From an uncultured bacterium (GTDB taxonomy: Bacteria; Acidobacteriota; HRBIN11; JAKEFK01), in the NCBI GenBank assembly GCA_963837395.1, contig CAWINI010000004.1, positions 2,699,484 to 2,763,483 of the forward strand: a stretch of DNA of 64,000 nt. Reading direction: 5' to 3'. Both the position numbers and the translations under genes were made by a program. The notes under the pieces were generated by a model. That model was not told the DNA's origin, made no database searches, and saw only the letters and a list, made by a program, of their open reading frames with translations. Shown in pieces: positions 1,372 to 64,000 of this stretch. Positions within the stretch are counted from its first letter, which is position 1. Every line of letters starts with the position of its first letter.

Positions 1372-1373
1372 AA

Positions 1374-38475: not shown

Positions 38476-40581
38476 AAGGCCCCGCATCCTTTGACCAGGG
38501 GCTGTTTTTGATGCACTTGCACAAAGGAAAGGAATACTTCGAACAGAATCAATTTCAAAAAGCTCGTGAAGAGCTGGAAGCAGCATACCATCTGCGTCCG
38601 CAAGACGAGAAAGTCCTGAATATGCTCGGGATGACCTATTTCAAACTAGAAATGCTGCCTCAGGCTGAAGAAATGTACACGGCGCTAACAGCCAATAATC
38701 CCGATGTTTATACCTTACAAAGCAATCTTGGTTTAATTCGGCTGAAACTAGACAAGCTTGAAAAGGCCGAAGATTCGCTCAACCGTGCGCTCGAACTTCA
38801 ACCTTCAAATCCGAAAGCGCATTTTTATCTTGGACTCTTATACGAAAAGATGGACAAGCTGGACAAGGCATTATTCCATTTCGAGCAAGCTCATGCAGAT
38901 AAAATGATTCAAAAAGTTAAGCACAAATTGGAAGAAGTGAAATCCAAAGAATACACTTTACTTCCATTCACAGTTGTAGAAGTGCTGGATGACGAAACTT
39001 CCATTCCGGTGCAAACAGAAGCAATGTTTCAAACAAGTGTTGCGCCTCTGCCGGTAGATGAACCAACACCGATTCATCAAGAAGAAAAGCTTCAGATTAA
39101 GGATGAGGAAATTGCTTCCGCAGCTGCAGAGAGTGAATGGGTAGAAGGTGGATCAAGCACAGGCAAGATGAGACGTCACGATGTAATGGAAGCGATGGAT
39201 CAAAGAGAAGAAGAGGAAGAGCTTGTAGAAGACGCTGAAAGTGAAGAAGAGGTGGTAAAAGAAGAAGCAGTCATTGATGACGAAACTCGCCCTCCGATGG
39301 ATGTAAGTGAATCGGAATCACACGATGAAATGAAATCAGATGATGCGTCTGAAGGAATCAATTCAACTGCAGCATCATTATTCATTCCTGATGAAATGGC
39401 TGCAGATATTTCGCAATTTTTGGCTCAGAGCCGTGATGATGAGCCTGTCAATGAGGAAAATTTTGTAAAGGAACCGCCTGGAGAAGCAACGGTTGAAGAA
39501 AATCATGTATTGGTTGCTACGGTGGAATCTCCATTTGAAGAACCTCCTGAGGAATTAAGCAAAATTCCAACTCCGGAAGAAGTAGAAAATGCTGTTGCAG
39601 AGATGGAACAAAAAGATGATGAACCGGTTGATGAGCAGCGCGAAATACCTCCTGCAAAGGAACCTCCTTCAGAACGTCCTCCATATGAAGAGCCACCTAC
39701 GGAGCAAGTACCGGTAGAAGAACCGGTTGAAGAACCGCCAGTTCAAGCACCGCAAGAAGAAATTGCAACTAGCGATCCGTTTGGTCCGGATGTAATCAAT
39801 GATTCAGTTGAGAAATCATTTGCAGCTGCCATTCGTCCGGATCCACACAGCGCTAGGACAATTGAACATACAATTTCAATGGATCCAGTTGAACATGTTG
39901 TTCATCCAGTTAAAACGCAAGAGCTTTATCAGCCTGCAAATTTGGATCAATTTTCGCGTGATCGATATTATGTCCAACCATTAATTGGAGCAGATCGATT
40001 CCTTTTGATCGATCCACATCTACTTGAAATAATAATTTCCGACAGACTCATCGTTCGAAAAGGAACGATCTCCAGTTTTACCGGCAATCTTTCATTTGAG
40101 CCCTGGCAGAAAGATGATCAGACTCTGCCTTTAATACAAGTTAGTGGCGCAGGAATTTTATTTTTAGCGGAAAGGCGTCAGGATATTTACTTGATTTCAC
40201 TGAACAATGAAACCTTGTTTGTGGAATCGAATCATATTCTTGTAGTTCAATCCGCTTTAAAAGTCGAACCTCACTTTTTCGTAAAGACTCCTTCCGATGA
40301 TAATTTTGCAATGGTTAAAGTATCAGGTAGAGGAACACTTGCTCTTACCTGTCATTCAAAACCTTTGACTCTGAATGTCTACGATGCAATGCCAGCAAAT
40401 ATTCCGGCAGATGCATTGATTGCCTGGTCCAGGACGACTGACATGTGACATTCTGGCTGACCCGGATCTTAACAAGATCATGATGTCAGGCGAAGGCACA
40501 ATCCTGTTGCGATTTACCGGCAGCGGCGATGTCGTGGTTGAGCAAGGCAGTCTCTGGGGCGAACGCCGCACCAAGAAGTAA
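38469..40581 (+). CDS. TPR-repeat protein with a ~300-residue polyacidic linker and a C-terminal AIM24-like (DUF124) domain (frameshifted near 40416-40448 in this assembly)
   Basis: N-terminal TPRs; E/D-rich low-complexity region; AIM24-like beta domain. The last 44 codons (DILADPDLNKIMMSGEGTILLRFTGSGDVVVEQGSLWGERRTKK, carrying the conserved GeG...GpG..vq ending) are in the +1 frame after the apparent stop at 40448; 7-nt overlap with the SLT gene. Confidence 0.65.
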
Positions 40582-42902: not shown

Positions 42903-45817
42903 ATGACTTTCCAGGATTTAATATTCTCGTTACAACAATTTTGGGCAAAACAAGGTTGTATTATTCAACAACCTTACGATATTGAAGTGGGTGCCGGGAC
43001 AATGCATCCTGAAACATTTCTGCGCGTGCTTGGACGCGATCCTTATAAGGTAGCGTACGTGCAGCCGAGCCGGCGGCCTGCCGACGGCCGTTATGGTGAA
43101 AATCCTAATCGCCTTTATAAACATCATCAATGTCAAGTCATTTTGAAACCCTCACCAAGCGATGTTCAAGATTTGTATCTTGATAGTCTGCGTTCGTTTG
43201 GAATCGATCCTTCGAAACACGATATCCGTTTTGAAGAAGATAATTGGGAATCTCCAACTTTGGGTGCATGGGGAATCGGCTGGCAGGTTCTTTTAGATGG
43301 TTTGGAAATCACGCAGTTCACTTATTTTCAGCAAGCAGGTGGAATCGATCTGTCCCCTGTTTCTGCAGAAATTACTTATGGCCTGGAAAGAATCACCGCG
43401 ATGTTAACTTCAAAAGAAAGTATCTATGACATCGAATGGGTCGAAGGATATACATATGGCCAGGTCCGTCTTGCAGAAGAACAGCAATTCTCAAAATATT
43501 CTTTCGAACTTGCGGATATCGAGTTACATTCTCAATTGCTTTCACAATACGAAGCGGAAGCAAAAAGAATGATTGAAGCAGGACTTTTTCTTGTAGCTTA
43601 CGAATATTGCCTCAAGTGTTCGCATGTTTTTAATGTTTTAGAAGCTCGCGGTGCAATCAGTGTAACTGAAAGAACTGGAATTATTGCACGCATCCGGAAT
43701 TTGGTTTGCCAGGTTGCACAACAGTACACCGGAGGTGCCTTTCAAATGCCTGAGCTTCTTTTCGAAATCGGTTGTGAAGAAATTCCTGCGGAAGATCTAA
43801 TTCGATTACCGGAAGAATTAAAACAATCAGCTCAAAAGTCATTTGAGACAAATCGTATTCAGTATTCCGACGTAAGAGCTTTCGCTACTCCGCGAAGATT
43901 GACTCTGGTGGCGGATCTCCAAGTAATGCAACAGGATCTAAAGGAGCAGCGCACTGGACCCGCTCGCAAAGTTGCTTTTGATGCCGCCGGAAATCCAACT
44001 TCAGCTGGATTAGGCTTTGCAAAAAGTGCCGGACTGCCATTTGAAAAACTCGGCATCAAATCTACCCCCAAGGGTGAATATCTGGTTGCTGAAATTTTGG
44101 TAGCTGGCCGCAAAACCCGGGATGTTCTGATAGAAATAATTCCAGCAATTACCAAAGGACTTTCATTTCGCAAGTTTATGAAATGGGGTTCTGAGGATTT
44201 TTCTTTCGGACGTCCTATTCGAAATTTAGTATTGCTTTTCGATAATGAAATAATTCCGCTTACTATCGCAGGCGTTTCTTCAAGCCGCTTCACGTTCGGT
44301 CATCGTTTCATGGGAAAAAACAAAATAGAAGTTGATAGCTTTGGACAATATAGAAAAACACTTGAAGAAAATGGGGTGATACTTGCGTTTGAAGATCGAT
44401 CAGATCGGATCCAACATCAACTTCATGACCATTCGGTGAAAGCAAATAGTGCATTGCGCGAAGATAAAGAATTATTGGAGATAATGGCGAATGAAGTCGA
44501 ATATCCGGAAGTTCTCACCGGAACATTCCCCGAAGAATTCCTGAAGCTGCCGCAAGAAATTTTGATCAATGCCATGCGGAAACATCAAAAATATTTTTGT
44601 GCTACCGATGCTGCAGGCAATTTACTTCCTGTTTTTTTTACAGTGCTTAATATCCATGCTACAGATCCTGAACTGATCCGAAAAGGACACAAACGTGTGT
44701 TGATGGCGCGGCTGCGTGATGCAGAATTCTTCTGGCGTGAGGATTTGAAATCGGATCTGATTACACTTCAAAATAAGCTGAGCCGTGTTACGTACCACGA
44801 GAAACTCGGTTCGTATACCGAGAAAGTAAGCCGGATGCTAAGAATATCGGATGAAATCATTAAACAGACAAAGCTTGAAGAAATTAGTCCGAAACTTCGA
44901 AAACTGATTCAAATGAGCAAGGCAGATCTGGTGACCTTGATGGTTGGAGAATTTCCTGAGTTGCAAGGAATTATGTCCGGATTGTTTGCCCGCGAAATGA
45001 AATTGCCGGAAGAAGAATGGCAAGCTCTTTATGATCAGTATTTGCCGGCTTCCGCTGAAGGCAGCATGCCTCGAAATCTGTTGGGAGCTTTCTTATCGCT
45101 AATTGATCGGATTGAAATTCTTACATCAGGTTATGTGTTAAACATGATTCCAACTGGTTCTCGCGATCCATATGCTTTGCGCCGTGCAGCTACAGCTGTA
45201 ATCCGAATCCTTTTGGATTTTCGATTAAAAATGGATCTGCGGCCGATCATCGATCAGGTATTCACCCTGTACAATCTCAAAACGAAACTCAGCCGTGATG
45301 AGATGCTGCATGGAGTAATGGAGTTATTGGAAGCGCGATTTAGATTTTTGATGGAACAGCGCGGAATTGCCCACGATTATTTAAATGCAATTTTGACTGT
45401 TGGGTCCGGAATTTTTCTGGATGCATTTAATCGGGCAAATGCACTCTGGTCGAAGAATCAATCTGAAGATTTGAAAACTCTGGCTCGATGCTTTAAAAGG
45501 ATCAATAATATTATTTCCGGCCAGCCTGATCATCAAATTGATCCGGAAAAACTGACTGAGGATGGAGAAAAAAGATTGAATCAGGTGTTTACGGATATGG
45601 AATTCCGGGTCAGTCAGTTAATTCAGGAAGGGCAATATCTCGATGCGCTGGACATTATGGTTACTCTCGGTTCCAGGAGATCGATAATTTTTTTGATGAA
45701 GTGCTGGTGATGGCTGAGGATGAACAATTGCGCAACAATCGCATAGCATTGCTGCAAAAAATCAGTCATTTATATCGTAAAATTGCAGATTTTTCGCAGC
45801 TGCAGATTGAAATGTAA
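42903..45817 (+). CDS. glyQS: fused glycine--tRNA ligase alpha+beta subunits (frameshifted near 45673 in this assembly)
   Basis: N-terminal GlyQ ([19 protein letters not shown]...) fused to GlyS. The C-terminal GlyS tail ([45 protein letters not shown]) lies in the -1 frame beyond the apparent stop at 45710; restoring one C in the CC run at 45673-45674 rejoins the frames. Confidence 0.85.
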
Positions 45818-52552: not shown

Positions 52553-52915
52553 ATGCCGACGCATTTAAAAGGACCATCGATTATTAAGGCAGCCGGAAAC
52601 AAACCGAAAGTGATTGAAGAATTCATTGGACGCGTAAATTCTGGAACTGCCGGTGTTAGCATTGCTCGAATGAAAAATCCGCAAGGATGGATTGAACCTG
52701 GGCAAACACCGGAGTTCGAAGAATTTACAGTGGTTTTGCGCGGAATGCTGAAAGTTCAATCACAATCCGGAACGATTGAAGTTCGCGCAGGTGAGGCGGT
52801 GATTTCACATAAAGGAGAATGGGTTCAATACAGCACACCTGAATCTGATGGCGCTGAGTATATTGCGATTTGCCTTCCAGCGTTTTCTATGGAAACTGTT
52901 CATCGAGACGAATGA
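52553..52915 (+). CDS. small cupin-fold protein
   Basis: About 120 aa beta-rich; AAGGAG RBS 6 nt before ATG 52553 (the ORF-track start at 52532 is less likely); its stop overlaps the next start (ATGA at 52912-52915). Confidence 0.55.
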   Translation: MPTHLKGPSIIKAAGNKPKVIEEFIGRVNSGTAGVSIARMKNPQGWIEPGQTPEFEEFTVVLRGMLKVQSQSGTIEVRAGEAVISHKGEWVQYSTPESDGAEYIAICLPAFSMETVHRDE

Positions 52916-54060
52916 CAAGATCTGAACGACTAATCGACTTCCGTTTCGTTCTGATAGTTTTTTTGATTTCCAGAATTGCTCTTGAAATTGTCGGAATTCT
53001 TTCCGCATTTTATTTTCCGCCGGCTCAAGCCGTATTCAAAATTCGTGATTTGCAATATCACACTCGCCAATCTTTGCCGCAGGAAATGTGGGCGCGTTGG
53101 GATTCTGAATGGTATCTGCTGATTGCAGATCATGGCTACGCTTCCTACGAATATTTTAAGGACGCTGGCGGCGGAAGATATTTACAACAAGACTCTTCAA
53201 AGTTTTTTCCAGCATATCCGATTGCTATTCGCACCTTAACATTCATCACTGGAAACAGTGTGCTCTCAGGCATTCTTATTTCAAATGTTTGTGCGTTGCT
53301 ATTCTTATATTTCTTTCTTCGTCTTGCTTCAAAATTCATGAGCACTGAAAATGCTGTCAATGCTGCAATTTTGTATGTTGTCTTTCCAACAAGTTTGTTT
53401 TTGAGCGCAATTTATGCTGAGGCGATGTTCCTTGCGGCAATTGTTGCTGCGTTTCTTTTCATAGAGGAACGAAAAATTTGGCCCGCCTTGCTTGCCTGTG
53501 CAATTGCAGTTCTTACACGCCCTCAGGGTGCACTTGCGCTTCCGGCGCTTGCATGGCTTGCATGGCAAAAGTTTGAGGCTCGGCGGATCATTGCAACAGC
53601 TGGAATTATTGCTGCTGTTTGTATTCCGCTTGCCGGATATTTGATGTACATCGATAACACTTTCGGATCAATGTCGTGGATTTCACAAAGCCAAACCTAC
53701 TGGCGCGGTGAAATGAAATATCCGTTTTATGCATTTGTACGGTTCTTTCAAAATACGATTGCGATTCATGGTCAACACAATTCGATGATCGATTTCACAT
53801 TTGCTATTGTTCAAATCATTGTGCTGATCTTCTCCTTCCGCAGAATTCCTTTGCCGTACACTTTGTATAGTTTGATTGTCTTATTATTCCCGTTAAGCAG
53901 CTCGCTGTTTTCTTTTTCCAGACTCTGTCTCGCGAATTTTCCCTTCTTTCTTGTATTACCTCCGCTGCTAGGGCGCTGGAATCTGCCTGTTCAAATTTTT
54001 TGCGCAATCATTCTGGCGTTTTTTATGGCAGCGTTTGCGAATTGGTTCTGGGTCGCTTAG
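52912..54060 (+). CDS. polytopic GT-C-type glycosyltransferase (PIG-V / mannosyltransferase-2-like)
   Basis: More than 8 TM helices; WDSEWYLLIADHGY...FFPAYP motif resembling PIG-V (GT76); translationally coupled to the cupin gene. Confidence 0.55.
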   Translation: MTRSERLIDFRFVLIVFLISRIALEIVGILSAFYFPPAQAVFKIRDLQYHTRQSLPQEMWARWDSEWYLLIADHGYASYEYFKDAGGGRYLQQDSSKFFPAYPIAIRTLTFITGNSVLSGILISNVCALLFLYFFLRLASKFMSTENAVNAAILYVVFPTSLFLSAIYAEAMFLAAIVAAFLFIEERKIWPALLACAIAVLTRPQGALALPALAWLAWQKFEARRIIATAGIIAAVCIPLAGYLMYIDNTFGSMSWISQSQTYWRGEMKYPFYAFVRFFQNTIAIHGQHNSMIDFTFAIVQIIVLIFSFRRIPLPYTLYSLIVLLFPLSSSLFSFSRLCLANFPFFLVLPPLLGRWNLPVQIFCAIILAFFMAAFANWFWVA

Positions 54061-55406
54061 TGGGACTCTGTGTCCTTGTGGTTGTTATAAAACGATGACC
54101 TTTTGAAAATAAATCTGTAGGTTATCTCAGACAACCGTTGTGGAACTTCCACAAATTGATTGTGCAACATTTGTGAAACTTTAAAATGACCATCGCGCGG
54201 AATCATCCCTGTTCCAACCTGGATCACCATAAAAAGATTCCAGATGATAAAAAAGATCGAAACTACCGGCACGAGTTTCGATTGCCAATGCGAATAAAGT
54301 GCAGCCAACCCAAATGTAAAAACGATTATGCAGCTAATTAAGTAACGAAGCCCGAATCCAGATCCACCTTGCCAGGTGTCGGCACAAATTACGAAATAAA
54401 ACTGTAAAAGAAACACCAGCACCAGAAGCCAAAGACTTTTTTCAGTTTTTATCAAAGAGAAAAATCCGATAATGCACAAAACGATTACCGGTGTCCAAAG
54501 AAATAAACCATGATAAGTTGAAAAAAGCACAGGAAGAAAATATTTACCGTTCCAAAAAAGTTTACCTTCTAAGTTTCCGGTTGAGTATGGATTGAGTTTA
54601 CCGTTTAGTACCCACCATATGCAGAGCTGAGGAATAAACATCAAAAAGGCAGCAGCAAGGCAAACCAGTTTCAAACGGATTTGTTTGCGATCAAACACCG
54701 GGATTACAAGAAAGAGTGCATCTTGCCATCGCACGATTGCAGCCAAACCACCAACAATGCCGATTAAGAACCATGCGGACACAGAATCTTTGTTACGAAG
54801 TTTGTACCATGTAAACACAAACAAGCTTGTTGTGAAAATGGAAGTTGCATGCGACATCGGTGGAGTAACATACATGTAGTAGACTGCGTGCGCTCCGAAC
54901 CACAGAGTCAGCACAGCCCAAAAAGAGATCCAGGCTGAAAAGAAATCGCGCAGGATTCTGTATTGCAGAAGAAATCCAAGAAAGCCGTAAAGTGCACTCG
55001 CAAAGCAAATCGCAAGCACATATGGAAATGAAAATCCATCTGCCGGATAGTTGTGTGTCGCTTTCACATACAAATCCGCAGCCGCAAAAAATGGTGCCCA
55101 CAAAATCGCACATCCAATCGGCGCATCATTGCGAGCATAGCCAGTGGAATTCAAACGATCGATGAATGCCTTTTTGAAATTCTGTTGTTTTGTTGGAGCG
55201 AGATTGTAAAGGTACTGGTATTCATTTTGAAAATTCAGATCGTGATCTTTCCAAACTGATCGAAGGTATGCGTAATATTGGATTTCATCTCCGCTGTAGA
55301 TTCGCGGGGTGAGAAGAATTAAGGAAACAACAAAGATTAAAACTAAAGCGAGGAAACCGCGTTCTGTAAATAAAAATCCGGCTGGATGGCGTTCCGCCTT
55401 TACCAT
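54057..55406 (-). CDS. GT-C glycosyltransferase of the PMT/ArnT (GT39/GT83) type
   Basis: N-terminal DE-containing loop (YSGDEIQYYAYLRSV), more than 10 TM helices; stop codon overlaps the stop of the convergent gene (TTAG at 54057-54060). Confidence 0.7.
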   Translation of the reverse strand: MVKAERHPAGFLFTERGFLALVLIFVVSLILLTPRIYSGDEIQYYAYLRSVWKDHDLNFQNEYQYLYNLAPTKQQNFKKAFIDRLNSTGYARNDAPIGCAILWAPFFAAADLYVKATHNYPADGFSFPYVLAICFASALYGFLGFLLQYRILRDFFSAWISFWAVLTLWFGAHAVYYMYVTPPMSHATSIFTTSLFVFTWYKLRNKDSVSAWFLIGIVGGLAAIVRWQDALFLVIPVFDRKQIRLKLVCLAAAFLMFIPQLCIWWVLNGKLNPYSTGNLEGKLFWNGKYFLPVLFSTYHGLFLWTPVIVLCIIGFFSLIKTEKSLWLLVLVFLLQFYFVICADTWQGGSGFGLRYLISCIIVFTFGLAALYSHWQSKLVPVVSIFFIIWNLFMVIQVGTGMIPRDGHFKVSQMLHNQFVEVPQRLSEITYRFIFKRSSFYNNHKDTESH

Positions 55407-56899
55407 TTTGTGGAATAAATCAGAACATACTCTTTGCCAAGCAACGGTACTTGATACTCAAGTTTGAACCGTGGATCGTTTGCTAGCAGTTGCTGACGTG
55501 GTTTGGTAACGATATCGGTATTAATCACGATGTAGTCAGGCTTTCGTGTTGAAAGATATTGGATCATCTTTTCATTGATTCCATCGCCTTTTTCGCGATA
55601 TTCCTTGCTTTGCAAATTCAGCCATCCCGAAAAATCTACGAGTTTGCGCTGCGCAAAATATGGAATCACTCCAATTTCTTCAGACGCGAAAGTCGATAAT
55701 GCGGGCGTATTATTTTTCAGCCATAACCCTGCTTCTTTATATGCAGGATAAGCGGTCAACTTTTGATCGCTGCGTGTTTGATCGTAATAGTAAATATTCA
55801 GTAAGAAATAGAAAAAGAAGCAGACCATCACTGTCCCGAACATAAAGAATTGCGACCATTTCGGTGATCTGAAATATTTTTCAGAAACCATTTTCAGGTA
55901 AGTCATTGAAAACAATCCAATGAACGGCAATAGATGAACGTAGTAGCGGCGATTATCAAGAAATGGTCCATAAAAAAACATACAGAAGGTTACCCAGATA
56001 AATAAAAACATGAAACGTGGAAGACGTTCTCGAATTTGTGAAAGTGCCGATATGACTGAAGCTATGATCAATATTGGAAAAAACAGAATCAAGATACCGC
56101 CAAGAAAATGTGGAATTTTCCGGAGCGCCCACGGATTTAATTTTGCACTTCCGGAACTTGGAAGCAGGGTTGAATGCGTTCCAATATAAGCAAACCAGAG
56201 AGCAGGTAAGGCAATCATTACAATTAAACGGACAAACGCGTCTTTCCAACGAAATTCATCATTTCGGTGATCGATATACAAATGATTCAAATACAACAAT
56301 CCCGCAAATAGCGCACCTTCATATCGCGTAAGGATTGCTAACCCAAGAAAGACATAAGTCCAGATTGATTGTGGATGAAACAAATATGTATACAGCGATA
56401 GCAACAGCAGGAATGTGAACAATGTGAAGTCTTGTGGTCCTGCGCTCAGAATCGCTTCGAGCGGAGATGCTGCCCACACTAACGCACTGGTGAAAGCGAT
56501 AAATGGATTCGATGTAATTCGGAAGGCAATCAAAAATAACAATACAGTTGTTGCTAAACTGAATCCAAGATTCACGAACTTCGCTGTAACGAGCGCGCTT
56601 TCTTGAAACAAAAAATGTTGAGCAGCAAGAATGAACGTTAGTAAGGGAGTTGCAGCATGCGAGATTTCGCCTGGATTAAAACTAAAGCCATTGCCTTCAG
56701 CAAGATTTCGAGCATACACATGGAACACGTAAGCGTCATCATAGGTTAAGTAGTAATCTCCAAAAAATAAGAAGTGAATGATGAGTGATAATGCGATTGT
56801 GCCTGTAATGAGCCAGCGGGATTGACTTAGAATCTCTGCTGCGGTTGCTTCCTCTTCTGGATGGAATACTGTTTTCTTAAAAGGAATAATTTCGGTCAT
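55400..56899 (-). CDS. GT-C glycosyltransferase, ArnT / 4-amino-arabinose-transferase-like (PMT_2 family)
   Basis: YDDAYVFHVYARNLAEGNGFSF loop motif typical of the ArnT/PMT_2 family; more than 10 TM helices; overlaps its neighbours by 7 nt and 4 nt. Confidence 0.75.
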   Translation of the reverse strand: MTEIIPFKKTVFHPEEEATAAEILSQSRWLITGTIALSLIIHFLFFGDYYLTYDDAYVFHVYARNLAEGNGFSFNPGEISHAATPLLTFILAAQHFLFQESALVTAKFVNLGFSLATTVLLFLIAFRITSNPFIAFTSALVWAASPLEAILSAGPQDFTLFTFLLLLSLYTYLFHPQSIWTYVFLGLAILTRYEGALFAGLLYLNHLYIDHRNDEFRWKDAFVRLIVMIALPALWFAYIGTHSTLLPSSGSAKLNPWALRKIPHFLGGILILFFPILIIASVISALSQIRERLPRFMFLFIWVTFCMFFYGPFLDNRRYYVHLLPFIGLFSMTYLKMVSEKYFRSPKWSQFFMFGTVMVCFFFYFLLNIYYYDQTRSDQKLTAYPAYKEAGLWLKNNTPALSTFASEEIGVIPYFAQRKLVDFSGWLNLQSKEYREKGDGINEKMIQYLSTRKPDYIVINTDIVTKPRQQLLANDPRFKLEYQVPLLGKEYVLIYSTKW

Positions 56900-57627
56900 A
56901 CTTTGATCATTACGTGATTCGTATTTGAATATTTACTAAAACGAAGACGGAAAATTGTTTGGATAGCTTTAAAAATTTCAGAGCGCGAGATTTTTGATTT
57001 TCCGGCCCGGCGTTCAACAAATATGATTGGAGTTTCAGCGACTCTGAGATTTCTTTTCGCAGCACGAAATAAAATTTCGACCAAATAGGAATATCCTTCA
57101 GCCATTACAGTTTCGAAATCCAGCTCTTCTAATGCACGGTTTTGATATAAACGGAATCCGGAAGTGCAATCGGAAGGTTGTAGTGAAAGAACCAAGTGAG
57201 CCATTGAGTTGGCTATTCTGCTGATCAAGATCCGGACCCAACTCCAATTTTGGGTCGCGCCACCTGGAACATAACGTGAACCAATTACTAAGTCTGCATT
57301 TTTGGATGTTTGGATTATTTCCGGGATATGAACAGGATTATGCGAAAAGTCAGCATCCATGGTGATTGCGGCGTCATAACCTTGATCCATGGCATAACGG
57401 AAGCCAGCTGAATAGGCTGTGCCTAATCCCAGTTTTTTTGCGCGACGTAGAACCTGTACCCGACGCTGTCCTCCGAATTGATCGTCGATTGCAGCCGCTG
57501 TACCATCCGGAGAGCCATCATCGATCACAAGAACATCGACCGGTTCAGGCAGATCTAAAATCGCTTTAACCAGGGGAATGATGTTTTCCCTCTCGTTATA
57601 GGTAGGAATTAAAACCAGTGTTTTCAT
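56896..57627 (-). CDS. GT2 polyprenyl-phosphate sugar synthase (Dpm1 / ArnC / GtrB-like)
   Basis: LVLIPTYNEREN...VLVIDDGSPDGT...DADFSHNP GT-A motifs; 243 aa. Confidence 0.85.
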   Translation of the reverse strand: MKTLVLIPTYNERENIIPLVKAILDLPEPVDVLVIDDGSPDGTAAAIDDQFGGQRRVQVLRRAKKLGLGTAYSAGFRYAMDQGYDAAITMDADFSHNPVHIPEIIQTSKNADLVIGSRYVPGGATQNWSWVRILISRIANSMAHLVLSLQPSDCTSGFRLYQNRALEELDFETVMAEGYSYLVEILFRAAKRNLRVAETPIIFVERRAGKSKISRSEIFKAIQTIFRLRFSKYSNTNHVMIKV

Positions 57628-57748: not shown

Positions 57749-57907
57749 ATGGCAAAAACAGTTACGGGGAAAGTTGGTGACAAGGTTGTTGAGAGTGGGA
57801 ATTACATTTGTATGAACTGCGGACATTATCAATTTTTCGAAGCACATGATGATTTCGAAGATTGTACGTCATGCGGGGAACCGGATATTGTCTGGGAATT
57901 GGAGTGA
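57749..57907 (+). CDS. 52-aa CxxC...CxxC zinc-ribbon protein (not in the ORF track because it is under 60 aa)
   Basis: ATG 57749 with GGGGAGA RBS; MAKTVTGKVGDKVVESGNYICMNCGHYQFFEAHDDFEDCTSCGEPDIVWELE; two CxxC pairs. Confidence 0.5.
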   Translation: MAKTVTGKVGDKVVESGNYICMNCGHYQFFEAHDDFEDCTSCGEPDIVWELE

Positions 57908-57908
57908 A

Positions 57909-58574
57909 TCAAACTCCAAATAACAGTAAGATTAGTCCGATTGCGAGCAGCACGAATATCGCACCAAAACCTAACCAAATATAGATTTCGTATCCACCTT
58001 TTTCTTTAATTTCAAGAGGAGCGGACGCACTTACTTCCTCTTCTACCTTTGGTGTTTCTGCTTTTGGTTTTGGTGGTTCAGGTGCAACTTCTTCAGCAGG
58101 TGGATCTGGAACAGCTGGCGGTGGTGGTGGTGGTGGCTCAACTGCGGCAGGTTGCGGTGGTTCTTTCTCATGTTCCGCTGTGCCCGTTCGTTGACCCAAA
58201 TTGGGTTCTGTTCCTGAAGGACGTCGCAATAATGCAGCTTCAGGCGGCATAGCCTCCATGATTGTAGCACCAGGTTCGCCCTCAAATCTGATTCGATAGG
58301 GCGCGATTGTAACAACATCCATAGCGTTTAGCGGATATTTTTCCTTGGCGACAATTGGTGCACCGTTTAACAGCGTGCCATTCGTGCTTCCGAGATCCGT
58401 TACGTAATAACTGTCGTTTTCCAAAAGGAACGCAGCGTGTGATCCTGAAATTTCCGGCCGGTTAAAATGGAGATCGTTTCCTGGTTTACGTCCGATTGTG
58501 ATTCGAGGTCGATCAAACGAAATTTCCTGGTGAGAGTTATCGATGTCAGATTCAATAATCAGCCTGGCTGGCAT
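57909..58574 (-). CDS. FHA-domain protein with a Pro-rich linker and C-terminal TM anchor
   Basis: FHA core (ITIGRKPGNDLHFNRPEISGSHAAF...SYYVTDLGSTNGTLLNG); PPPPPPPAVPDPP; C-terminal helix IWLGFGAIFVLLAIGLILLLF. Confidence 0.8.
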   Translation of the reverse strand: MPARLIIESDIDNSHQEISFDRPRITIGRKPGNDLHFNRPEISGSHAAFLLENDSYYVTDLGSTNGTLLNGAPIVAKEKYPLNAMDVVTIAPYRIRFEGEPGATIMEAMPPEAALLRRPSGTEPNLGQRTGTAEHEKEPPQPAAVEPPPPPPPAVPDPPAEEVAPEPPKPKAETPKVEEEVSASAPLEIKEKGGYEIYIWLGFGAIFVLLAIGLILLLFGV

Positions 58575-58746
58575 AGTGGGTATGGTACCGCTACATTCTT
58601 AATTCGTAAAGTAGTTCATTTTATGGTTCAACCGCGCATAAACTGATCTGGAATCTAAACAAGTTTACGATTAATATTCGTATTTCATTTCTTCTTGACT
58701 CTGGCTGACTAAATCCCAAGGTAATCATTTCACCATAAACCGAGTT

Positions 58747-59724
58747 CTATTTTAACCCGACCAACCAGCCGCCTTCCTGACCGTTAGAACGAATTACGTA
58801 AGTCCCTCTTAGATTTCTACCTTCCATCTTTCCAACAAAATCTACCGCGCGCCCATCTTTTTCAGTCATTGAAAACTCGACTGGGAATGATGATGTCTTT
58901 CGATATTGACCAAAAACTTGAAACATCCCGATCGTTTTTCTGAATTCATTTTTGAATCCGCCGCTTCCACCAAGATCCATTCTCCACACTAATGTAGCTG
59001 TGCCTGATATGGAACTTCCTTGCTGCCGCAGTTTTAGATCCAGATCCAGAGTAGACTCGCGAATGTTGGAATAAAGTTTATTGTCCATTGTTCCGCTCCA
59101 GGTGCCCTCAACTTTTGCTACTCTGGCAGGAAGTCCAAAACTTAATGAAAGCAGTTTCGATTTTTGATCTGCGGGGACAGTATTTAAAAAATCAACGGCG
59201 TAATAACGTCCGCCGCTTTGATCATTTCCAACAGCGTAAAAATTTTCGATCTGTTCGAAAACGAGACCACCTGAAGCTACAATTCCAGTATCTTCAGGAC
59301 TTTTTACTTGAACAAAAGTGCGATAGTACGACCACAACAACATTTGCCACCATTTTGCCAATTCCTCTAATTCAACTCCGCGCTGATTTAATTTGCTGTA
59401 GGCATAAGTATCTTCAGACAAAACTCGCAACAACGGCGATTTCGTACCATCAACTGCTCCATCCGCAAAAAGCGAATAGGCATTATCTTGATTCGAGATT
59501 GTTACCTGGGCATCTGGATTGGATTGAAAATAAGTAACAGCGTTGTTCAGATTTTTCGCAACTATTTCGGCTCGCTCACGACTGCTTCCTGCATCATCTT
59601 TTGCCACCAAAACCAAAAGTGGACCTATGTTTGTTTCAACCGAATATTCATTAAAACCGAGAGGCGTTGCATATGGTTTTGCTACAAACGAAAGTCTGAA
59701 CACTTCCTGCGGGTTTTCAATCAC
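58747..59724 (-). CDS. hypothetical soluble protein, translationally coupled to the upstream 2xFHA gene
   Basis: 325 aa; no TM helix or signal peptide; no recognisable motif; 8-nt overlap with the 59717..61306 gene. Confidence 0.55.
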   Translation of the reverse strand: MIENPQEVFRLSFVAKPYATPLGFNEYSVETNIGPLLVLVAKDDAGSSRERAEIVAKNLNNAVTYFQSNPDAQVTISNQDNAYSLFADGAVDGTKSPLLRVLSEDTYAYSKLNQRGVELEELAKWWQMLLWSYYRTFVQVKSPEDTGIVASGGLVFEQIENFYAVGNDQSGGRYYAVDFLNTVPADQKSKLLSLSFGLPARVAKVEGTWSGTMDNKLYSNIRESTLDLDLKLRQQGSSISGTATLVWRMDLGGSGGFKNEFRKTIGMFQVFGQYRKTSSFPVEFSMTEKDGRAVDFVGKMEGRNLRGTYVIRSNGQEGGWLVGLK

Positions 59725-61306
59725 AGGAGGTGCCCGGCAAAATTATGAAGTCCATTGTATTTTTTGTCCGCATATTATTGATTCGAACTGTAACCGGAAC
59801 CTTAAGCCCCTCGTCAGGAATGTTATCTGCAGGACTCGGAACTGTGGCAATAATGTCATCACCATCCACCCGAGTACCAGCGAGATCGCCGCCGAATAAC
59901 ACACTCGTGGATTGACCGGGCATATTCGTTTTGATTCGCACTTCAGATCCAACTCCGCCTGAAAGGGGATTCATATTTTGAATGCGAGGGGCAATCAGCA
60001 CTTTGAAATTGATTCGCGAAAGAACATCTTTTTCGCCCATCACCAGAATTTCTGAATCGGTTTCCGCACCAGAAAGATTGGGAAAATCAGGTAATTTTAT
60101 TTCCAAACCCTCTTTATCGCGCTTTAAGACAAATGCATCTTGATCCAAAATCTTTACAGCTTTCACATCTTCAGGATCAAAGCTTCCCTGAACATGAATT
60201 AAATCCCCAGTACTCCCTTTTTCAGGACTCGCTAAGGGTGGCGTTAATGAACCTTTTCCCCAAATGAAAAATATGATCAGACCTAAAACTGAAAGCCCCA
60301 ATACTATTCCGCCGATAGCTCCAAGTGAATATCCACGGCGGACTTCTGGTAGTTGAACAGGAACTTCTTCTCTTTCTTCAACAGCGACTGCACTTTCTGC
60401 AGCTTCTTCTTCAGATTTTTTCTCTGCCGCTTCAGCACCTTCTGCAGCAGACTCTGCACCTTCTCCGGCAGCAGCCTCTTCAGCGATTTTTTCTCCTTCT
60501 TTCGCAGCAGCATCCGTTACTTCTTTTGATTGCAATTTACCCGGTGTGCTGTCGGTCATTTGCATATCTTCCAGCTTTGATAACAATGCTTCCGCGGGAT
60601 TGCTGAAGATGAGAATTACAGGAGCTGAGCTTGATTGTTGTCCGAATCGAATTTCATCACGGTCACGCAATCTGCGACTTCCACTGATCCGCTCATCGTT
60701 GATGAAAGTTCCATTGGCACTGTTTAAATCTTTAATGAAAGCACCAGACCATGACAATGAGAGTTCAGCATGTCTGCGTGAAACGCTGGGATGTTCGATG
60801 ACGATATCAACACCGCTTGTTCTGCCGGAAATCAGAGTTGTGCCTTCAGTCAGCTCATACTGTTTTCCATTTTCCGGGCCGCCCATCAAAATGACTCTCG
60901 GTTTTTCGGCCGTGCTGGTTTGCCAGGAACCGAGAACTTCCATGACCATCTGTCGCGCAACCTGAACTGTTGCCCCAGAATCGATCCCCAAAACGTTGAT
61001 GCCTGTGGAAAAATACAGATCGAAGGTTTGAATTCTAATCAGATCGCTGTCGCTAAGAAGCTTTTTTTCACCAGCCACCAGGCGCTCACCATTGAGAAAA
61101 GTTCCATTGATGGAACCTCGATCGATCAAGTAGTAGTTGTCGTTTTCTTTTTCGATTTGGGCGTGGTATCCCGAGACGGACGCCATCGGGAGTTGAATAT
61201 CATTCTCTTTTAATCGGCCGATAGTAATTAACGGCTGATCAAACTCATAGCTGTAATCCTTAGTCCCGCCCTCGGTGAGCTGGGCTTTTACGACCAACTT
61301 GATCAT
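59717..61306 (-). CDS. membrane protein with two N-terminal FHA domains, an acidic Ala/Glu-rich linker, one TM helix and a ~180-aa extracytoplasmic domain
   Basis: FHA1 (ITIGRLKENDIQLPMASVSGYHAQI...YYLIDRGSINGTFLNG); FHA2 (TLISGRTSGVDIVIEHPSVSRRHAEL...FIKDLNSANGTFIND); TM LGAIGGIVLGLSVLGLIIFFIW. Confidence 0.8.
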   Translation of the reverse strand: MIKLVVKAQLTEGGTKDYSYEFDQPLITIGRLKENDIQLPMASVSGYHAQIEKENDNYYLIDRGSINGTFLNGERLVAGEKKLLSDSDLIRIQTFDLYFSTGINVLGIDSGATVQVARQMVMEVLGSWQTSTAEKPRVILMGGPENGKQYELTEGTTLISGRTSGVDIVIEHPSVSRRHAELSLSWSGAFIKDLNSANGTFINDERISGSRRLRDRDEIRFGQQSSSAPVILIFSNPAEALLSKLEDMQMTDSTPGKLQSKEVTDAAAKEGEKIAEEAAAGEGAESAAEGAEAAEKKSEEEAAESAVAVEEREEVPVQLPEVRRGYSLGAIGGIVLGLSVLGLIIFFIWGKGSLTPPLASPEKGSTGDLIHVQGSFDPEDVKAVKILDQDAFVLKRDKEGLEIKLPDFPNLSGAETDSEILVMGEKDVLSRINFKVLIAPRIQNMNPLSGGVGSEVRIKTNMPGQSTSVLFGGDLAGTRVDGDDIIATVPSPADNIPDEGLKVPVTVRINNMRTKNTMDFIILPGTSCD

Positions 61307-61346: not shown

Positions 61347-61919
61347 TCAGCGGTTTAATTCTAGCAATTGGCAAAGCAAATGGATGATCATTCCATGAAC
61401 TTCCTGAATTCGTGGAGTGGACTGGTGCGGCACAATAAGCGCAGCATCGCATAGCAGCATTGCACGTCCGCCATCCCGGCCTAGAAGACCAACCGTCTGG
61501 CATCGCTTATCCCGAGCCATTTTCAAACCCTCTACAATGTTAGTAGAGTTTCCGCTGGTCGAAATGGCAATTGCAAGATCTGATGGATCCGCAAGGGTCT
61601 CGATTTGTTTGGCGAAAATGGAATCGAAACCTTCATCATTGCTTATGGCAGTCAGTAAGGATGTATCGGTATGCAGCGCATGAGCACGCATTCCGATCGG
61701 GGAATTTTCGACCCTATGCATGAGTTCGGCAGCAAAATGTTGGGCATCTGCTGCTGAACCACCATTTCCAAAAATCAATACCTTCCGTTTTTGATTTCGA
61801 ACTTCTTTGAGCAGTTCATAAACCTGGAGCATGTTGTCCATGTTCTTGTTGAAAAACTCCCGTTTTAAATCAAGGGAAGCTTCAACGGAGCTTCTGATAA
61901 AATTTTCAGCGTCACTCAT
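61347..61919 (-). CDS. gmhA: D-sedoheptulose-7-phosphate isomerase (phosphoheptose isomerase, SIS domain)
   Basis: IFGNGGSAADAQHFAAEL...ISTSGNS...QEVH motifs collinear with GmhA; 190 aa. Confidence 0.85.
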   Translation of the reverse strand: MSDAENFIRSSVEASLDLKREFFNKNMDNMLQVYELLKEVRNQKRKVLIFGNGGSAADAQHFAAELMHRVENSPIGMRAHALHTDTSLLTAISNDEGFDSIFAKQIETLADPSDLAIAISTSGNSTNIVEGLKMARDKRCQTVGLLGRDGGRAMLLCDAALIVPHQSTPRIQEVHGMIIHLLCQLLELNR

Positions 61920-62974
61920 ATGATTAGCATCGCATCGCCATAGCTATAAAATCGATAGCCTTCGTTCACAGCATGTTCATAAGCTTTACGGATGTGTGTA
62001 TATCCGCCAAAAGCTGCAACCAGCATTAAAAGCGATGACTTTGGAAGATGAAAGTTCGTAATGAGACCGGAAGTAATTAGGAATTTGTAGCCGGGGTAGA
62101 TGAATAGCCCTGTGCTTCCTTGAAGTTCACCGGTAGCAGCGATGCTTTCAATGGTACGAGTTGTTGTTGTGCCTACAGCAATGACGCGGCGCGCATTCTG
62201 AATTTTTTTCCAGGCAGCTGATGAACAAAAATAAGTCTCCGGATGGAGGCTGTGTTTTCGTATGTCGTTGCTTTTCACCGGACGGAATGTTCCGGGTCGT
62301 ACATGCAATGTAATTCGCGCAGTTTGAATACCACGTTCGCGAAGATCATTCAGGATTTTGCGAGTAAAGTGAAGGCCGGCTGTTGGTGCTGCAATCGAAC
62401 CACGAATTTTAGCGTAAATAGTCTGATATCGTTTTTGATCCATCGAATCTGGTTCGCGTTTGATATAAGGCGGAAGTGGAAGATTTCCATGCGAACTCAG
62501 TAGCTGATCGACATCATCTTGAAATCGCAAGATACGTCCGACAGTTGAAAGCGATAAAACTTCCGCTTTGATTCCATTTTCGAATTGTACTTGATCTCTC
62601 GGACGAAATTTCTTTCCTGGATATACCAGAGCATCCCAACAATTCTTTTCTGTTTCATGAATCAACAACACTTCACCGCGATCCGATTGCAATCGCGATG
62701 GAATCACTCGAGTGTTGTTTAAAACAATGAGGTCATCTTTTTGTAATAACTTTGGCAGGTCTAAAAAATGTTTGTCCGAAATTTTTCCTGTGATGCGATC
62801 AAGTCGTAACAATCGCGAAGTGTCGCGTTTCTTTAATGGGTATTGTGCGATTCGATCCGCTGGGAGCTCATAATCATAAGAATTCAAATCGAATAGATTG
62901 TCAGACAGAGGCCCGGCCTCCGCTCCCGGCTTCCGCGAGGCCGGGCCTCGATCGGTCTGTGCTGTTGCTTTCAT
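61916..62974 (-). CDS. queA: S-adenosylmethionine:tRNA ribosyltransferase-isomerase
   Basis: [16 protein letters not shown] and VGTT motifs; 352 aa; 4-nt overlaps with both gmhA and ruvB. Confidence 0.9.
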
Positions 62975-64000
62975 TTTTCAAACAAGCTTTGCTGATAATT
63001 CGATTTGGCTGGTGTAAGTCCAAAGTGTTTATAGGCATTTAGCGTCACAATGCGGCCTTGCGGAGTACGATTTAAGAAACCGATTTGCATCAGGTAAGGC
63101 TCATAAATATCTTCCAATGTGGATTTTTCTTCCGATGTCGCTGCTGCCAGCGCGCTTACACCAACAGGACCGCCATTAAACTTTTGGATAATTGTTAGTA
63201 ATAATTTTCGATCGACTTCATCCAATCCTAAATGATCTACTTCCAGCATCTCCAATGCTTTCATCGCAACCGAGTGAGTGATTACGCCATCGGCTTCGAC
63301 TTGCGCAAAATCGCGAACGCGACGCAAAAAGCGATTTGCAATTCGCGGCGTTCTTCGTGAACGCATCGCGATCTCGCGGATCCCTTCTTCTTCAATCGGA
63401 ATATTTAGAATGCGCGCAGACCGGGTAAGAATCTTGTAAATATCATCAACGCTGTAATAATCCAGAGTGTGCCGGATTAAGAAGCGATCGCGTAACGGCT
63501 TTGTGAGTGATCCTGCACTGGTTGTAGCACCAATCAAAGTGAAAGGTGGCAAATTAATTCGGAGTGTGCGCGCGGATGGGCCTTGTCCGATAATAATATC
63601 CAGTTTGTAATCTTCCATTGCTGGATACAACACTTCTTCAATTGCTGAATTTAACCGGTGAATTTCATCAATGAACAAAACTTCTTTCTCTTGAAGGTTC
63701 GTTAACAGAGCAACCAGATCTCCGGCACGTAAAATCACAGGCCGGAAGTTGTTTTGATACTACTTCCCATTTCATGAGCAACGATGTTGGCGAGAGTAGT
63801 TTTGCCCATTCCGGGAGGACCCATCAGCAGAATATGATCCAAAGCATCGTTGCGCTGTTTAGCGGCTTGAATTGCAACCTGCAAGTTCTTGCGCACTTTT
63901 TCCTGACCGACGTATTCAGCAAATGTTTTTGGACGAAGATGAGCTTCTTCTTTTAATTCTTCGCCACTCGGTGGGCTAAAAACGATCCGTTCCGCCTTGT
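62971..64000 (-). CDS. ruvB: Holliday junction branch-migration ATPase RuvB (runs off the window end; frameshifted at about 63740-63745 in this assembly)
   Basis: C-terminal part ([14 protein letters not shown]...[10 protein letters not shown]...sensor and winged-helix regions) is at 62971..63738. The Walker A part ([30 protein letters not shown]) is in another frame upstream; restoring one G in the GG run at 63740-63741 (plus strand) rejoins them as [13 protein letters not shown]. Confidence 0.85.

What the first reader, a model, noticed from the sequence alone, without database searches (positions are those of the whole stretch)
57909..61306. Membrane FHA module: 2xFHA-TM-periplasmic protein, coupled unknown protein, and FHA-Pro-rich-TM protein
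Three FHA (phospho-Thr-binding) domains lie on two membrane proteins of opposite topology-anchor type, flanking a translationally coupled 325-aa protein with no detectable motif. The first protein places two FHA domains and an acidic Ala/Glu linker in the cytoplasm and a 180-aa domain outside. This is reminiscent of YscD/EssB-type FHA gatekeepers of secretion machines, or of FhaA-type cell-wall regulators. The second protein tethers an FHA domain to the membrane through a polyproline spacer. With the kinases and pseudokinase in the same window, this is a plausible phospho-dependent transmembrane signalling or assembly scaffold whose output protein (the 325-aa ORF) is uncharacterised.
Basis: partly seen in the sequence, partly recalled or inferred. 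Interest (0 to 1): 0.65.

Follow-up and report, generated by a model that had tools for sequence, protein, structure and literature searches.

The report
Two-gene membrane FHA scaffold, one gene frameshifted
The "three-gene" module is really two conserved genes of an uncultured Acidobacteriota bacterium: an 853-residue membrane protein that a one-base indel has split into two reading frames, and a small tail-anchored partner, which together probably form a phosphothreonine-reading membrane scaffold of unknown output.

Summary
The three FHA domains, both membrane anchors, the acidic linker and the proline-rich spacer are real. The "translationally coupled 325-aa unknown protein" is not a separate gene. 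In 22 full-length relatives (831-932 aa, 40-97% identity), ORF1 and ORF2 form one protein. The window has one extra base at 59733-59735 compared with a relative whose DNA is 94% identical. ruvB, 4 kb away, also carries a one-base indel, so an assembly error is the likely cause.

The restored 853-aa protein has these parts: FHA, conserved helix, FHA, disordered acidic linker, one TM, two Ig/TIG domains, a new alpha/beta domain, and an 8-stranded calycin-like barrel. About 500 residues lie outside the membrane.

It is followed by a tail-anchored FHA protein in nearly all Acidobacteriota loci and in a Candidatus Schekmanbacteria genome. The other neighbours (queA, a GmhA-like gene, GT2/GT-C genes) are conserved only within the lineage. 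The kinases lie 30-56 kb away and are not conserved neighbours. No secretion-system genes are nearby.

Best reading: a multivalent pThr-dependent scaffold, comparable to Rv1747 or FhaA/FhaB, that couples Hanks-kinase signalling to a periplasmic head domain. This is an uncharacterised variant of a known kind and of moderate interest.

The parts
58747..61306 (-). One gene for an approximately 853-aa bitopic FHA-FHA-TM-TIG-TIG-alpha/beta-barrel protein. In the window it reads as ORF1 (59717-61306) plus ORF2 (58747-59724) because of a frameshift.
   Evidence: 22 full-length relatives of 831-932 aa cover both ORFs as one protein. tblastn of the relatives gives two HSPs in frames -1 and -2 that join at about 59727-59735.
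59731..59737 (-). Frameshift site. There is one extra base in 'TTGCCGGGCACC' compared with 'TTGCCCGG-AGC' in L002 (94% nt identity). ORF1 therefore stops at the TGA at 59717-59719, and ORF2 seems to start at the GTG at 59722-59724.
61007..61306 (-). FHA domain 1 (residues 1-100), cytoplasmic. G30 R31 S45 H48 N67 are invariant.
60923..60976 (-). Inter-FHA segment 'GATVQVARQMVMEVLGSW' (residues 111-128). It is almost entirely invariant across the family and is predicted to be helical. It is a candidate partner- or membrane-binding motif, and the invariant T113 is a candidate phospho-site.
60602..60898 (-). FHA domain 2 (residues 137-235), cytoplasmic. G161 R162 S176 H179 N198 G199 are invariant.
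60335..60550 (-). Acidic Ala/Glu-rich linker (residues ~253-324). It is disordered (pLDDT about 30) and poorly conserved (19% identity in the 8 most distant relatives).
60257..60331 (-). Single transmembrane helix (residues ~326-350), preceded by RR on the cytoplasmic side.
59741..60235 (-). Two periplasmic Ig-like beta-sandwich (IPT/TIG-type) domains (residues ~358-522). The 924-935-aa relatives have a third copy, so this looks like a stalk of variable length.
   Evidence: AF2 model. PF01833 TIG is found in relatives. The extra repeat is visible in the alignment.
59116..59703 (-). New alpha/beta domain (ORF2 residues ~8-203; conserved LGFNEY, SSRERAE, WWxMLL and P..TG motifs). It matches no Pfam, NCBIfam or PDB entry.
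58753..59106 (-). C-terminal 8-stranded antiparallel beta-barrel (ORF2 residues 207-324). It is weakly similar to FABP, NanoLuc and de novo barrels (calycin-like).
57909..58574 (-). Tail-anchored FHA partner (221 aa). Layout: FHA 25-90, invariant T104..E107 and G121-T122 motifs, Pro-rich spacer ~138-180, C-terminal TM 194-221.
61347..61919 (-). SIS_2 / GmhA-like isomerase gene. It lies immediately upstream of the big FHA gene in all 16 Acidobacteriota loci that include upstream DNA, but not in Schekmanbacteria.
57749..57907 (+). Conserved 52-aa CxxC...CxxC zinc-ribbon ORF, convergent with the small FHA gene.

Best explanation
SHOWN. The locus has two genes, not three.

Gene 1 is an approximately 853-aa bitopic inner-membrane protein. 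Its reading frame is broken in this assembly by a single extra base. From the cytoplasm outward it has: two canonical phosphothreonine-binding FHA domains joined by an almost invariant helix, a disordered acidic linker, one TM helix, a stalk of two Ig/TIG domains, and a head made of a previously undescribed alpha/beta domain plus an 8-stranded calycin-like barrel.

Gene 2 is a tail-anchored protein. Its FHA domain is held at the inner face of the membrane by a Pro-rich spacer. The pair is conserved across Acidobacteriota and in Candidatus Schekmanbacteria.

INFERRED. The pair works as a multivalent adaptor that reads pThr. Hanks-type Ser/Thr kinases encoded elsewhere phosphorylate Thr residues on a partner, or on the pair's own conserved linker motifs. 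The three membrane-proximal FHA domains bind these pThr sites. That binding clusters or recruits the complex, as in Rv1747 and FhaA. This controls where and when the periplasmic head sits; the head is held 8-12 nm out on the Ig stalk and binds an envelope ligand. Alternatively, ligand binding by the head could change the clustering.

A link to envelope glycan assembly is possible. The hints are the GmhA-like, GT2/GT-C, DegT/NTP-transferase and Wzy_C neighbours and one relative fused to a Wzz-like GNVR domain. This link is the weakest step.
For: One gene:
- Two partial relatives of ORF2 read through from the ORF1 C-terminus.
- A search with the repaired periplasmic region gave 22 full-length proteins of 831-932 aa at 92-100% coverage, aligned.
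- The window differs from L002 by a single extra base at the junction.
- The gene is in one frame in 11 other loci.
- The ORF2 part shows the same ratio of synonymous to non-synonymous changed codons as the ORF1 part (39:11 against 70:16), so it has not decayed.
- ruvB, 4 kb away, has a second 1-nt indel.

Architecture:
- Pfam FHA x2 and x1.
- TM segments.
- AF2 models with pLDDT 85 for the head and 75 for the full length.
- TIG is detected in relatives.
- The barrel resembles FABP-type barrels.

pThr competence: the GR/SxxH/NG columns are invariant.

Pairing:
- The small FHA gene follows the big one in L001-L004, L006-L012 and L021/L022, with a 4-nt overlap in L006.
- The Schekmanbacteria partner is also an FHA domain with a C-terminal TM.

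Conservation pattern: in the 8 most distant relatives the cytoplasmic FHA block is 65-71% identical, the head 45-53%, the stalk 33-41% and the linker 19%.

Superfamily: FHA-TM-TIG(2-3)-alpha/beta is a recurrent architecture. Of 64 distant relatives, 44 have TIG and 30 have FHA. A few carry Pkinase, Zn-ribbon or GNVR domains instead of, or alongside, FHA. One relative lies next to a Pkinase-TPR gene.

Precedent: in Rv1747, tandem FHA domains bind pThr in the protein's own linker (PMC3138270).
Against: - No kinase, phosphatase or enzymatic output is encoded next to the pair in this lineage.
- No ligand or partner is identified.
- The glycan link rests on neighbours that differ between lineages and are absent in Schekmanbacteria.
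- One locus (L013) lacks the small partner.
- That the frameshift is an assembly error is inferred. It was not shown from reads.
Confidence: 0.6

Rival explanations
1. The split is real. This strain carries a genuinely frameshifted gene (a recent pseudogene), or expresses it as two polypeptides with ORF2 re-initiating at the overlapping GTG.
For: The sequence as given has the frameshift, and a GTG lies 8 nt upstream of the ORF1 stop. Some other loci also show breaks: L001 is fragmented, and the small FHA gene is shifted in L003/L004.
Against: ORF2 has no signal peptide or TM, so a separately made head domain would be stranded in the cytoplasm. 22 relatives are intact. The ORF2 part shows no relaxation of selection. 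A housekeeping gene (ruvB) in the same 4 kb is also hit by a 1-nt indel in a C/G run, which is typical of assembly error. The other broken loci come from visibly error-rich contigs; queA is also split in L001 and L003.
Confidence: 0.12
2. Programmed +1 ribosomal frameshifting joins ORF1 and ORF2.
For: A +1 shift within a 23-nt window would restore the full protein.
Against: The shift is not conserved: the closest relative and all the others are in frame. There is no known +1 slippery or stop-codon context at CCG GGC ACC. ruvB has an unrelated indel nearby.
Confidence: 0.01
3. The big protein is an SctD/YscD-, TagH- or EssC-like structural FHA component or gatekeeper of a secretion or motility machine (T3SS, T6SS, T7SS, Glt).
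For: PF16697 Yop-YscD_cpl hits (77.5 and 35.9 bits). There are weak NCBIfam hits to TagH and GltG. The FHA-TM-periplasmic layout resembles SctD and GltG.
Against: The PF16697 hits lie under stronger FHA hits. TagH scores 74.7 against a cut-off of 120, and GltG 64.7 against 650. No YscD periplasmic domain or ring-building motif is detected. No secretion or motility genes occur in the window half examined or in about 12 related loci. Residues implicated in pThr binding are absent from the EssC FHA domains (PMC4925161), but they are invariant here.
Confidence: 0.07
4. It is a FhaA/FhaB(FipA)-type regulator of peptidoglycan synthesis and cell division: two adjacent FHA proteins, one of them small and membrane-anchored.
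For: A large FHA protein and a small membrane-anchored FHA protein are encoded side by side, as with Rv0020c/Rv0019c. The best NCBIfam hit of ORF1 is FhaB_Rv0019c (94.4 bits). FhaA coordinates envelope biogenesis (PMC11898655).
Against: The scores are below the cut-off (94.4 and 43.3 against 125), and the hits cover only the FHA domain. No pknA/B, pstP, rodA or pbpA genes are adjacent. The domain order and the large periplasmic region have no counterpart in FhaA or FhaB.
Confidence: 0.15

Closest known systems
Mycobacterium tuberculosis Rv1747 (ABC exporter with two N-terminal FHA domains)
   Same: Tandem cytoplasmic canonical FHA domains are joined by a linker and tethered to the membrane. 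In Rv1747 both FHA domains bind pThr sites in the protein's own linker, and phosphorylation by PknF activates it (PMC3138270). Multivalency of this kind could also apply here.
   Different: There is no ABC transporter domain here. The membrane part is a single TM helix followed by a periplasmic region of about 500 aa. No kinase is in the operon. A second, tail-anchored FHA protein is encoded alongside.
Mycobacterial FhaA (Rv0020c) / FhaB-FipA (Rv0019c)
   Same: A large and a small FHA protein are encoded next to each other, and the small one is membrane-anchored. They act as pThr adaptors for envelope biogenesis (PMC11898655).
   Different: The NCBIfam FhaB model scores below its cut-off. There is no kinase/phosphatase/RodA/PbpA operon. 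The small protein here is tail-anchored, with FHA N-terminal and TM C-terminal. The big protein has two FHA domains and a large periplasmic part.
T3SS SctD (YscD/PrgH)
   Same: An N-terminal cytoplasmic FHA-fold domain, one TM helix, and a multi-domain periplasmic region. The Pfam Yop-YscD_cpl model scores above its own cut-off.
   Different: The FHA domains here keep all the pThr-binding residues. No Yop-YscD_ppl or ring-building motifs are found. No T3SS genes are nearby.
T6SS TagH/Fha and Myxococcus GltG
   Same: They are FHA-containing accessory proteins of trans-envelope machines and give weak NCBIfam hits.
   Different: The scores are far below the cut-offs (74.7 against 120; 64.7 against 650). 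No T6SS or Glt genes are in any locus.
Uncharacterised FHA-TM-TIG(2-3)-alpha/beta proteins of Acidobacteriota (e.g. Vicinamibacteria HWW93505.1) and Candidatus Schekmanbacteria MBI2571938.1
   Same: They share the same periplasmic alpha/beta domain after TIG repeats. The Schekmanbacteria protein has the same two-FHA architecture and the same tail-anchored partner.
   Different: Most distant members have one FHA domain, often lack the C-terminal barrel (their matches cover profile positions ~8-240 only), and have no small partner.

Membership tests
FHA domain (PF00498) | HMM score above the gathering cut-off | tested here: met
   ORF1 scores 134.5 bits over 2 stretches and ORF3 scores 62 bits, against a cut-off of 20.7.
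FHA domain (PF00498) | Canonical pThr-binding residues (Gly-Arg, Ser-x-x-His, Asn-Gly loops) | tested here: met
   G30 R31 S45 H48 N67, G161 R162 S176 H179 N198 G199 and G28 R29 S43 H46 N65 G66 are invariant. Actual pThr binding could not be tested.
T3SS SctD / YscD | Periplasmic YscD-type ring-building domains | tested here: not met
   No Pfam hit in residues 355-853 at E<=1. Foldseek against PDB finds only barrel-like hits.
T3SS SctD / YscD | Encoded within a T3SS gene cluster | tested here: not met
   The neighbours are ruvB, queA, a GmhA-like gene, GT2 and GT-C-like genes. The same holds in L003, L007 and others.
T6SS TagH (TIGR03354) | Score above the curated cut-off of 120.25 | tested here: not met
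   74.7 bits (ORF1) and 59.2 bits (ORF3).
GltG (NF033760) | Score above the curated cut-off of 650 | tested here: not met
   64.7 bits.
FhaB/FipA Rv0019c (NF049868) | Score above the curated cut-off of 125 | tested here: not met
   94.4 bits (ORF1) and 43.3 bits (ORF3); only the FHA domain is covered.
FhaB/FipA Rv0019c (NF049868) | Operon with pknA/pknB, pstP, rodA and pbpA | tested here: not met
   None of these is found within the locus or the related loci.
Rv1747-type FHA-regulated ABC exporter | Two N-terminal FHA domains joined by a linker | tested here: met
Rv1747-type FHA-regulated ABC exporter | ABC ATPase and permease domains; adjacent cognate kinase | tested here: not met
   No ABC Pfam hit. 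No adjacent kinase.
IPT/TIG domain (PF01833) | HMM hit or Ig-like beta-sandwich after the TM | tested here: inconclusive
   The window ORF1 itself gives no TIG hit at E<=1. Orthologues do: 50 bits in L006, and 44 of 64 distant relatives. The AF2 model shows two beta-sandwiches at 358-522.
Calycin (lipocalin/FABP-like) barrel | 8-10-stranded antiparallel barrel with significant structural similarity | tested here: inconclusive
   An 8-strand barrel is modelled at pLDDT of about 90. Foldseek gives E = 4e-4 to 1e-2, and TM-scores normalised to the target are 0.4-0.7. A ligand pocket was not examined.
Anti-phage defence systems (PADLOC) | Match to any defence-system model | tested here: not met
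   No hit at E<=0.01.

The most novel reading that the evidence does not exclude
The two-FHA protein and its tail-anchored FHA partner define a new, phylum-spanning class of phosphothreonine-gated trans-envelope scaffold. Its head, a previously undescribed alpha/beta domain plus a calycin-like barrel carried on an Ig-domain stalk, binds a lipid-linked or outer-envelope ligand. This would couple Hanks-kinase signalling directly to envelope glycan or outer-membrane assembly in Acidobacteriota and Schekmanbacteria. The alpha/beta domain would be a new extracytoplasmic sensor or binding domain that also occurs on kinases and zinc-ribbon proteins.
Probability: 0.25. Interest if true: 0.6.

Novelty: new variant of a known kind. 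Interest (0 to 1): 0.35.

Why it matters
Most work on bacterial FHA proteins concerns Actinobacteria and secretion systems. This family would be an example from Gram-negative Acidobacteriota, which are abundant in soil and hard to culture. In it, three canonical pThr readers sit at the inner membrane and are physically joined to a large periplasmic module that no library describes. If the scaffold model holds, it offers a tractable entry point into how Hanks kinases control envelope processes in these phyla, and it defines a new extracytoplasmic domain family.

There is also a practical lesson. The most intriguing element of the original finding, an orphan 'output' protein, was created by a single-base indel.

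Tried and rejected
- **ORF2 as an orphan gene.** Pfam and NCBIfam gave nothing, and a first homology search gave only 6 short hits. The alignment then showed read-through from ORF1, so ORF2 is not a separate gene.
- **Strain variants at the junction.** An exact-pattern scan of metagenome contigs around the junction found nothing.
- **Extra ~125 nt between the two genes.** It matches no Rfam family, is not repeated in the window, and folds no better than shuffled sequence (z = +1.08).
- **Promoter and terminator scan.** It found nothing above chance.
- **Defence-system hypothesis.** PADLOC gave no hit.
- **Secretion-system and FhaB/TagH/GltG membership.** Rejected on curated cut-offs and on gene context (and the neighbour scans).
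- **Literature.** No paper in the library holds both 'FHA domain' and 'TIG domain', or FHA together with Acidobacteria and the membrane terms.
- **Kinase link.** No kinase lies in the flanks of related Acidobacteriota loci.
Full report
**What is at the coordinates**

Three minus-strand ORFs occupy 57909-61306:
- ORF1, 59717-61306, 529 aa.
- ORF2, 58747-59724, 325 aa, with a GTG start that overlaps the ORF1 stop by 8 nt.
- ORF3, 57909-58574, 221 aa.

Pfam finds two FHA domains in ORF1 (E=1.7e-39) and one in ORF3 (E=7.3e-17). It finds nothing in ORF2, and NCBIfam adds nothing above any curated cut-off. A hydropathy scan gives one TM segment in ORF1 (~325-354) and one at the very C-terminus of ORF3 (194-221).

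**ORF2 is not a gene of its own**

A homology search with ORF2 returned only six proteins. In the alignment, two of them (P0001 at 88% identity and P0005 at 52%) start with sequence that matches the C-terminus of ORF1 ('...VPVTVRINN..DFIILPEAPV..PQEVF...') and read straight into ORF2. The two frames overlap in a 23-nt window around 'TTGCCGGGCACCTCC'.

I repaired the frame and searched with the TM-plus-periplasmic part. This returned 22 full-length proteins of 831-932 aa at 92-100% query coverage, from 96% down to 40% identity over that region. They align end to end with the 853-aa reconstruction.

At the DNA level the window is 94% identical to contig L002, which encodes the 852-aa P0007 (96% identical in the search). 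Within the gene the only gap is one extra base at the junction: window 'TTGCCGGGCACC' against L002 'TTGCCCGG-AGC'. tblastn of relatives onto the window gives two HSPs in frames -1 and -2 that meet at 59727-59735. The gene is in a single frame in 11 other loci.

The ORF2 part shows the same excess of synonymous changes against L002 as the ORF1 part (39 synonymous to 11 non-synonymous changed codons, against 70 to 16). It has therefore not drifted as a pseudogene would.

**Error or mutation?**

ruvB, 4 kb away, is also broken by a one-base indel in a C/G run: 'TCCGGCCTGTGA' where 'TCCGGCCCTGTGA' would give ...[13 protein letters not shown].... Two single-base indels at CCGG-type runs within 4 kb, one of them in a housekeeping gene, point to assembly error. 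I could not check reads.

A real split is unlikely to be functional, because ORF2 has no signal peptide or TM and would be left in the cytoplasm. Programmed +1 frameshifting is excluded in practice, because the shift is not conserved and has no known slippery context.

**Architecture of the restored protein**

AlphaFold models were made for the full-length protein using P0007 (pLDDT 75) and for the ORF2 part alone (pLDDT 85). They give this layout:

| Residues | Element |
|---|---|
| 1-100 | FHA1 |
| 115-128 | helix |
| 137-235 | FHA2 |
| 237-252 | helix |
| 253-331 | disordered acidic linker |
| 332-348 | TM helix |
| 358-437 and 442-522 | two Ig-like beta-sandwiches |
| ~540-725 | alpha/beta domain |
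| 734-851 | 8-stranded antiparallel barrel |

Orthologues and distant relatives score for IPT/TIG in the sandwich region. The 924-935-aa relatives carry a third TIG copy, so this part looks like a stalk of variable length.

All three FHA domains keep the GR / SxxH / NG residues, and these columns are invariant across the family. By contrast, residues implicated in pThr binding are absent from the EssC FHA domains (PMC4925161).

The cytoplasmic block is the most conserved part: 65-71% identity in the eight most distant orthologues. The head follows at 45-53%, the stalk at 33-41% and the linker at 19%. The inter-FHA segment GATVQVARQMVMEVLGSW is almost entirely invariant.

**The partner**

ORF3 orthologues share an FHA domain, invariant T104..E107 and G121-T122 motifs, a Pro-rich spacer and a C-terminal TM. 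The small gene follows the big one in L001-L004 and L006-L012, with a 4-nt overlap in L006.

It also follows in a Candidatus Schekmanbacteria genome (MBI2571938.1). There the partner again has an FHA domain with a C-terminal TM, although every other neighbour differs. One locus (L013) lacks the partner. More distant single-FHA relatives also lack it.

**Context**

The family is rare. It occurs in 3 of 185,579 species genomes, all labelled Acidobacteriota or uncultured, and in 9 metagenome loci.

Within Acidobacteriota the order is ruvCAB, queA, a SIS/GmhA-like gene, the big FHA gene, the small FHA gene. queA and the SIS gene lie directly upstream in all 16 loci that include upstream DNA. Downstream there is usually a polyprenyl-phosphate-sugar-synthase-like GT2 and two GT-C-like membrane proteins. 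In L006 and L013 the downstream genes are instead DegT, CYTH, an NTP-transferase and APH.

None of these neighbours is present in Schekmanbacteria. They are best read as lineage synteny that carries a loose glycan theme.

The window's Pkinase genes are 30-56 kb away. No kinase lies within +/-10 kb in related Acidobacteriota loci. One distant relative (P0042) does sit next to a Pkinase-TPR gene.

**The wider domain family**

A profile of the ORF2 region searched against 1.84 billion representative proteins found 69 proteins. The distant ones carry the alpha/beta domain at the C-terminus after TIG repeats. Of 64 scanned, 44 have TIG, 30 have FHA, 2 have a protein kinase domain, 2 have zinc ribbons, and 1 has a Wzz-like GNVR domain. 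FHA-TM-TIG(2-3)-alpha/beta is therefore a recurrent, undescribed architecture. No paper in the library mentions FHA and TIG domains together.

**Mechanism**

What is shown: a bitopic protein with two canonical FHA domains inside and about 500 aa outside, paired with a tail-anchored FHA protein.

What is inferred: the three membrane-proximal FHA domains bind pThr sites made by Hanks kinases encoded elsewhere. These sites may be on partners or on the pair's own conserved Thr motifs. Binding clusters or recruits the complex, by analogy with Rv1747, whose tandem FHA domains bind pThr in its own linker (PMC3138270), and with FhaA/FhaB (PMC11898655). This would control a periplasmic head held out on an Ig stalk. 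The calycin-like barrel suggests a small hydrophobic or lipid-linked ligand. A role in envelope glycan assembly is possible but weakly supported.

**Rejected or down-weighted readings**

- Secretion-system gatekeeper: there are no such genes nearby, TagH and GltG score far below their cut-offs, and the FHA domains are canonical.
- FhaB membership: the score is below the cut-off and the operon is wrong.
- Defence system: no PADLOC hit.
- RNA element or repeat in the unusually long spacer between the two genes: nothing found.

**Verdict**

The supposed mystery protein is a frameshift artefact. What remains is an uncharacterised variant of the membrane-tethered FHA scaffold with a new periplasmic domain, conserved across phyla and of moderate interest.

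Noticed in passing
window 63735-63745 (ruvB, minus strand, 62971-64000): ruvB is split into two frames at 63741. One C seems to be missing in 'TCCGGCC(C)TGTGATT'. Like the FHA-gene indel, it lies at a CCGG-type G/C run, which suggests systematic assembly error.
   Followed up: yes
window 57749-57907 (+): A 52-aa CxxC...CxxC zinc-ribbon ORF is convergent with the small FHA gene, with the two stop codons abutting. It is conserved at 67-69% identity in the same position in L003, L007 and L009. Function unknown.
   Followed up: partly
window 58600-58735: The spacer between the big and small FHA genes is 172 nt here, against 39 nt in L002 and 3-42 nt or an overlap in other loci. The extra ~125 nt are unique in the window, match no Rfam family, and have no stable fold.
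   Followed up: partly
window 340-4229 (-): A 951-aa protein with two Pkinase stretches plus a PEGA domain sits next to a TPR/PEGA protein. It is 54 kb from the FHA module.
   Followed up: no
window 20975-21712 (+) and 26250-28184 (+): One protein consists of three PASTA repeats with no kinase domain. Another, of 644 aa, has a weaker Pkinase match (86 bits) and may be a pseudokinase.
   Followed up: no
window 54057-57627 (-) and 52870-54060 (+): A GT2 resembling polyprenyl-phosphate-sugar synthases is followed by a 499-aa multi-pass membrane protein with no family match, and by two GT-C/PMT_2-like proteins. This gene set is conserved downstream of the FHA pair in most Acidobacteriota loci.
   Followed up: partly
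window 13084-14625 (-); 38469-40448 (+); 42903-45710 (+): A 513-aa ankyrin-repeat protein, a TPR + AIM24 fusion, and a fused alpha-beta glycyl-tRNA synthetase.
   Followed up: no
L003 12620-13292; L004 12599-13271: The small FHA genes of these two long-contig MAGs are shifted between frames inside the Pro-rich region, so the called 163-aa products lack the TM. The cause is probably also indel error.
   Followed up: partly
L021 4935-6959; L024 8323-10206: TonB-dependent receptor genes lie next to the family members in Schekmanbacteria (P0033) and beside a single-FHA relative (P0042). This may hint at an outer-membrane connection.
   Followed up: no
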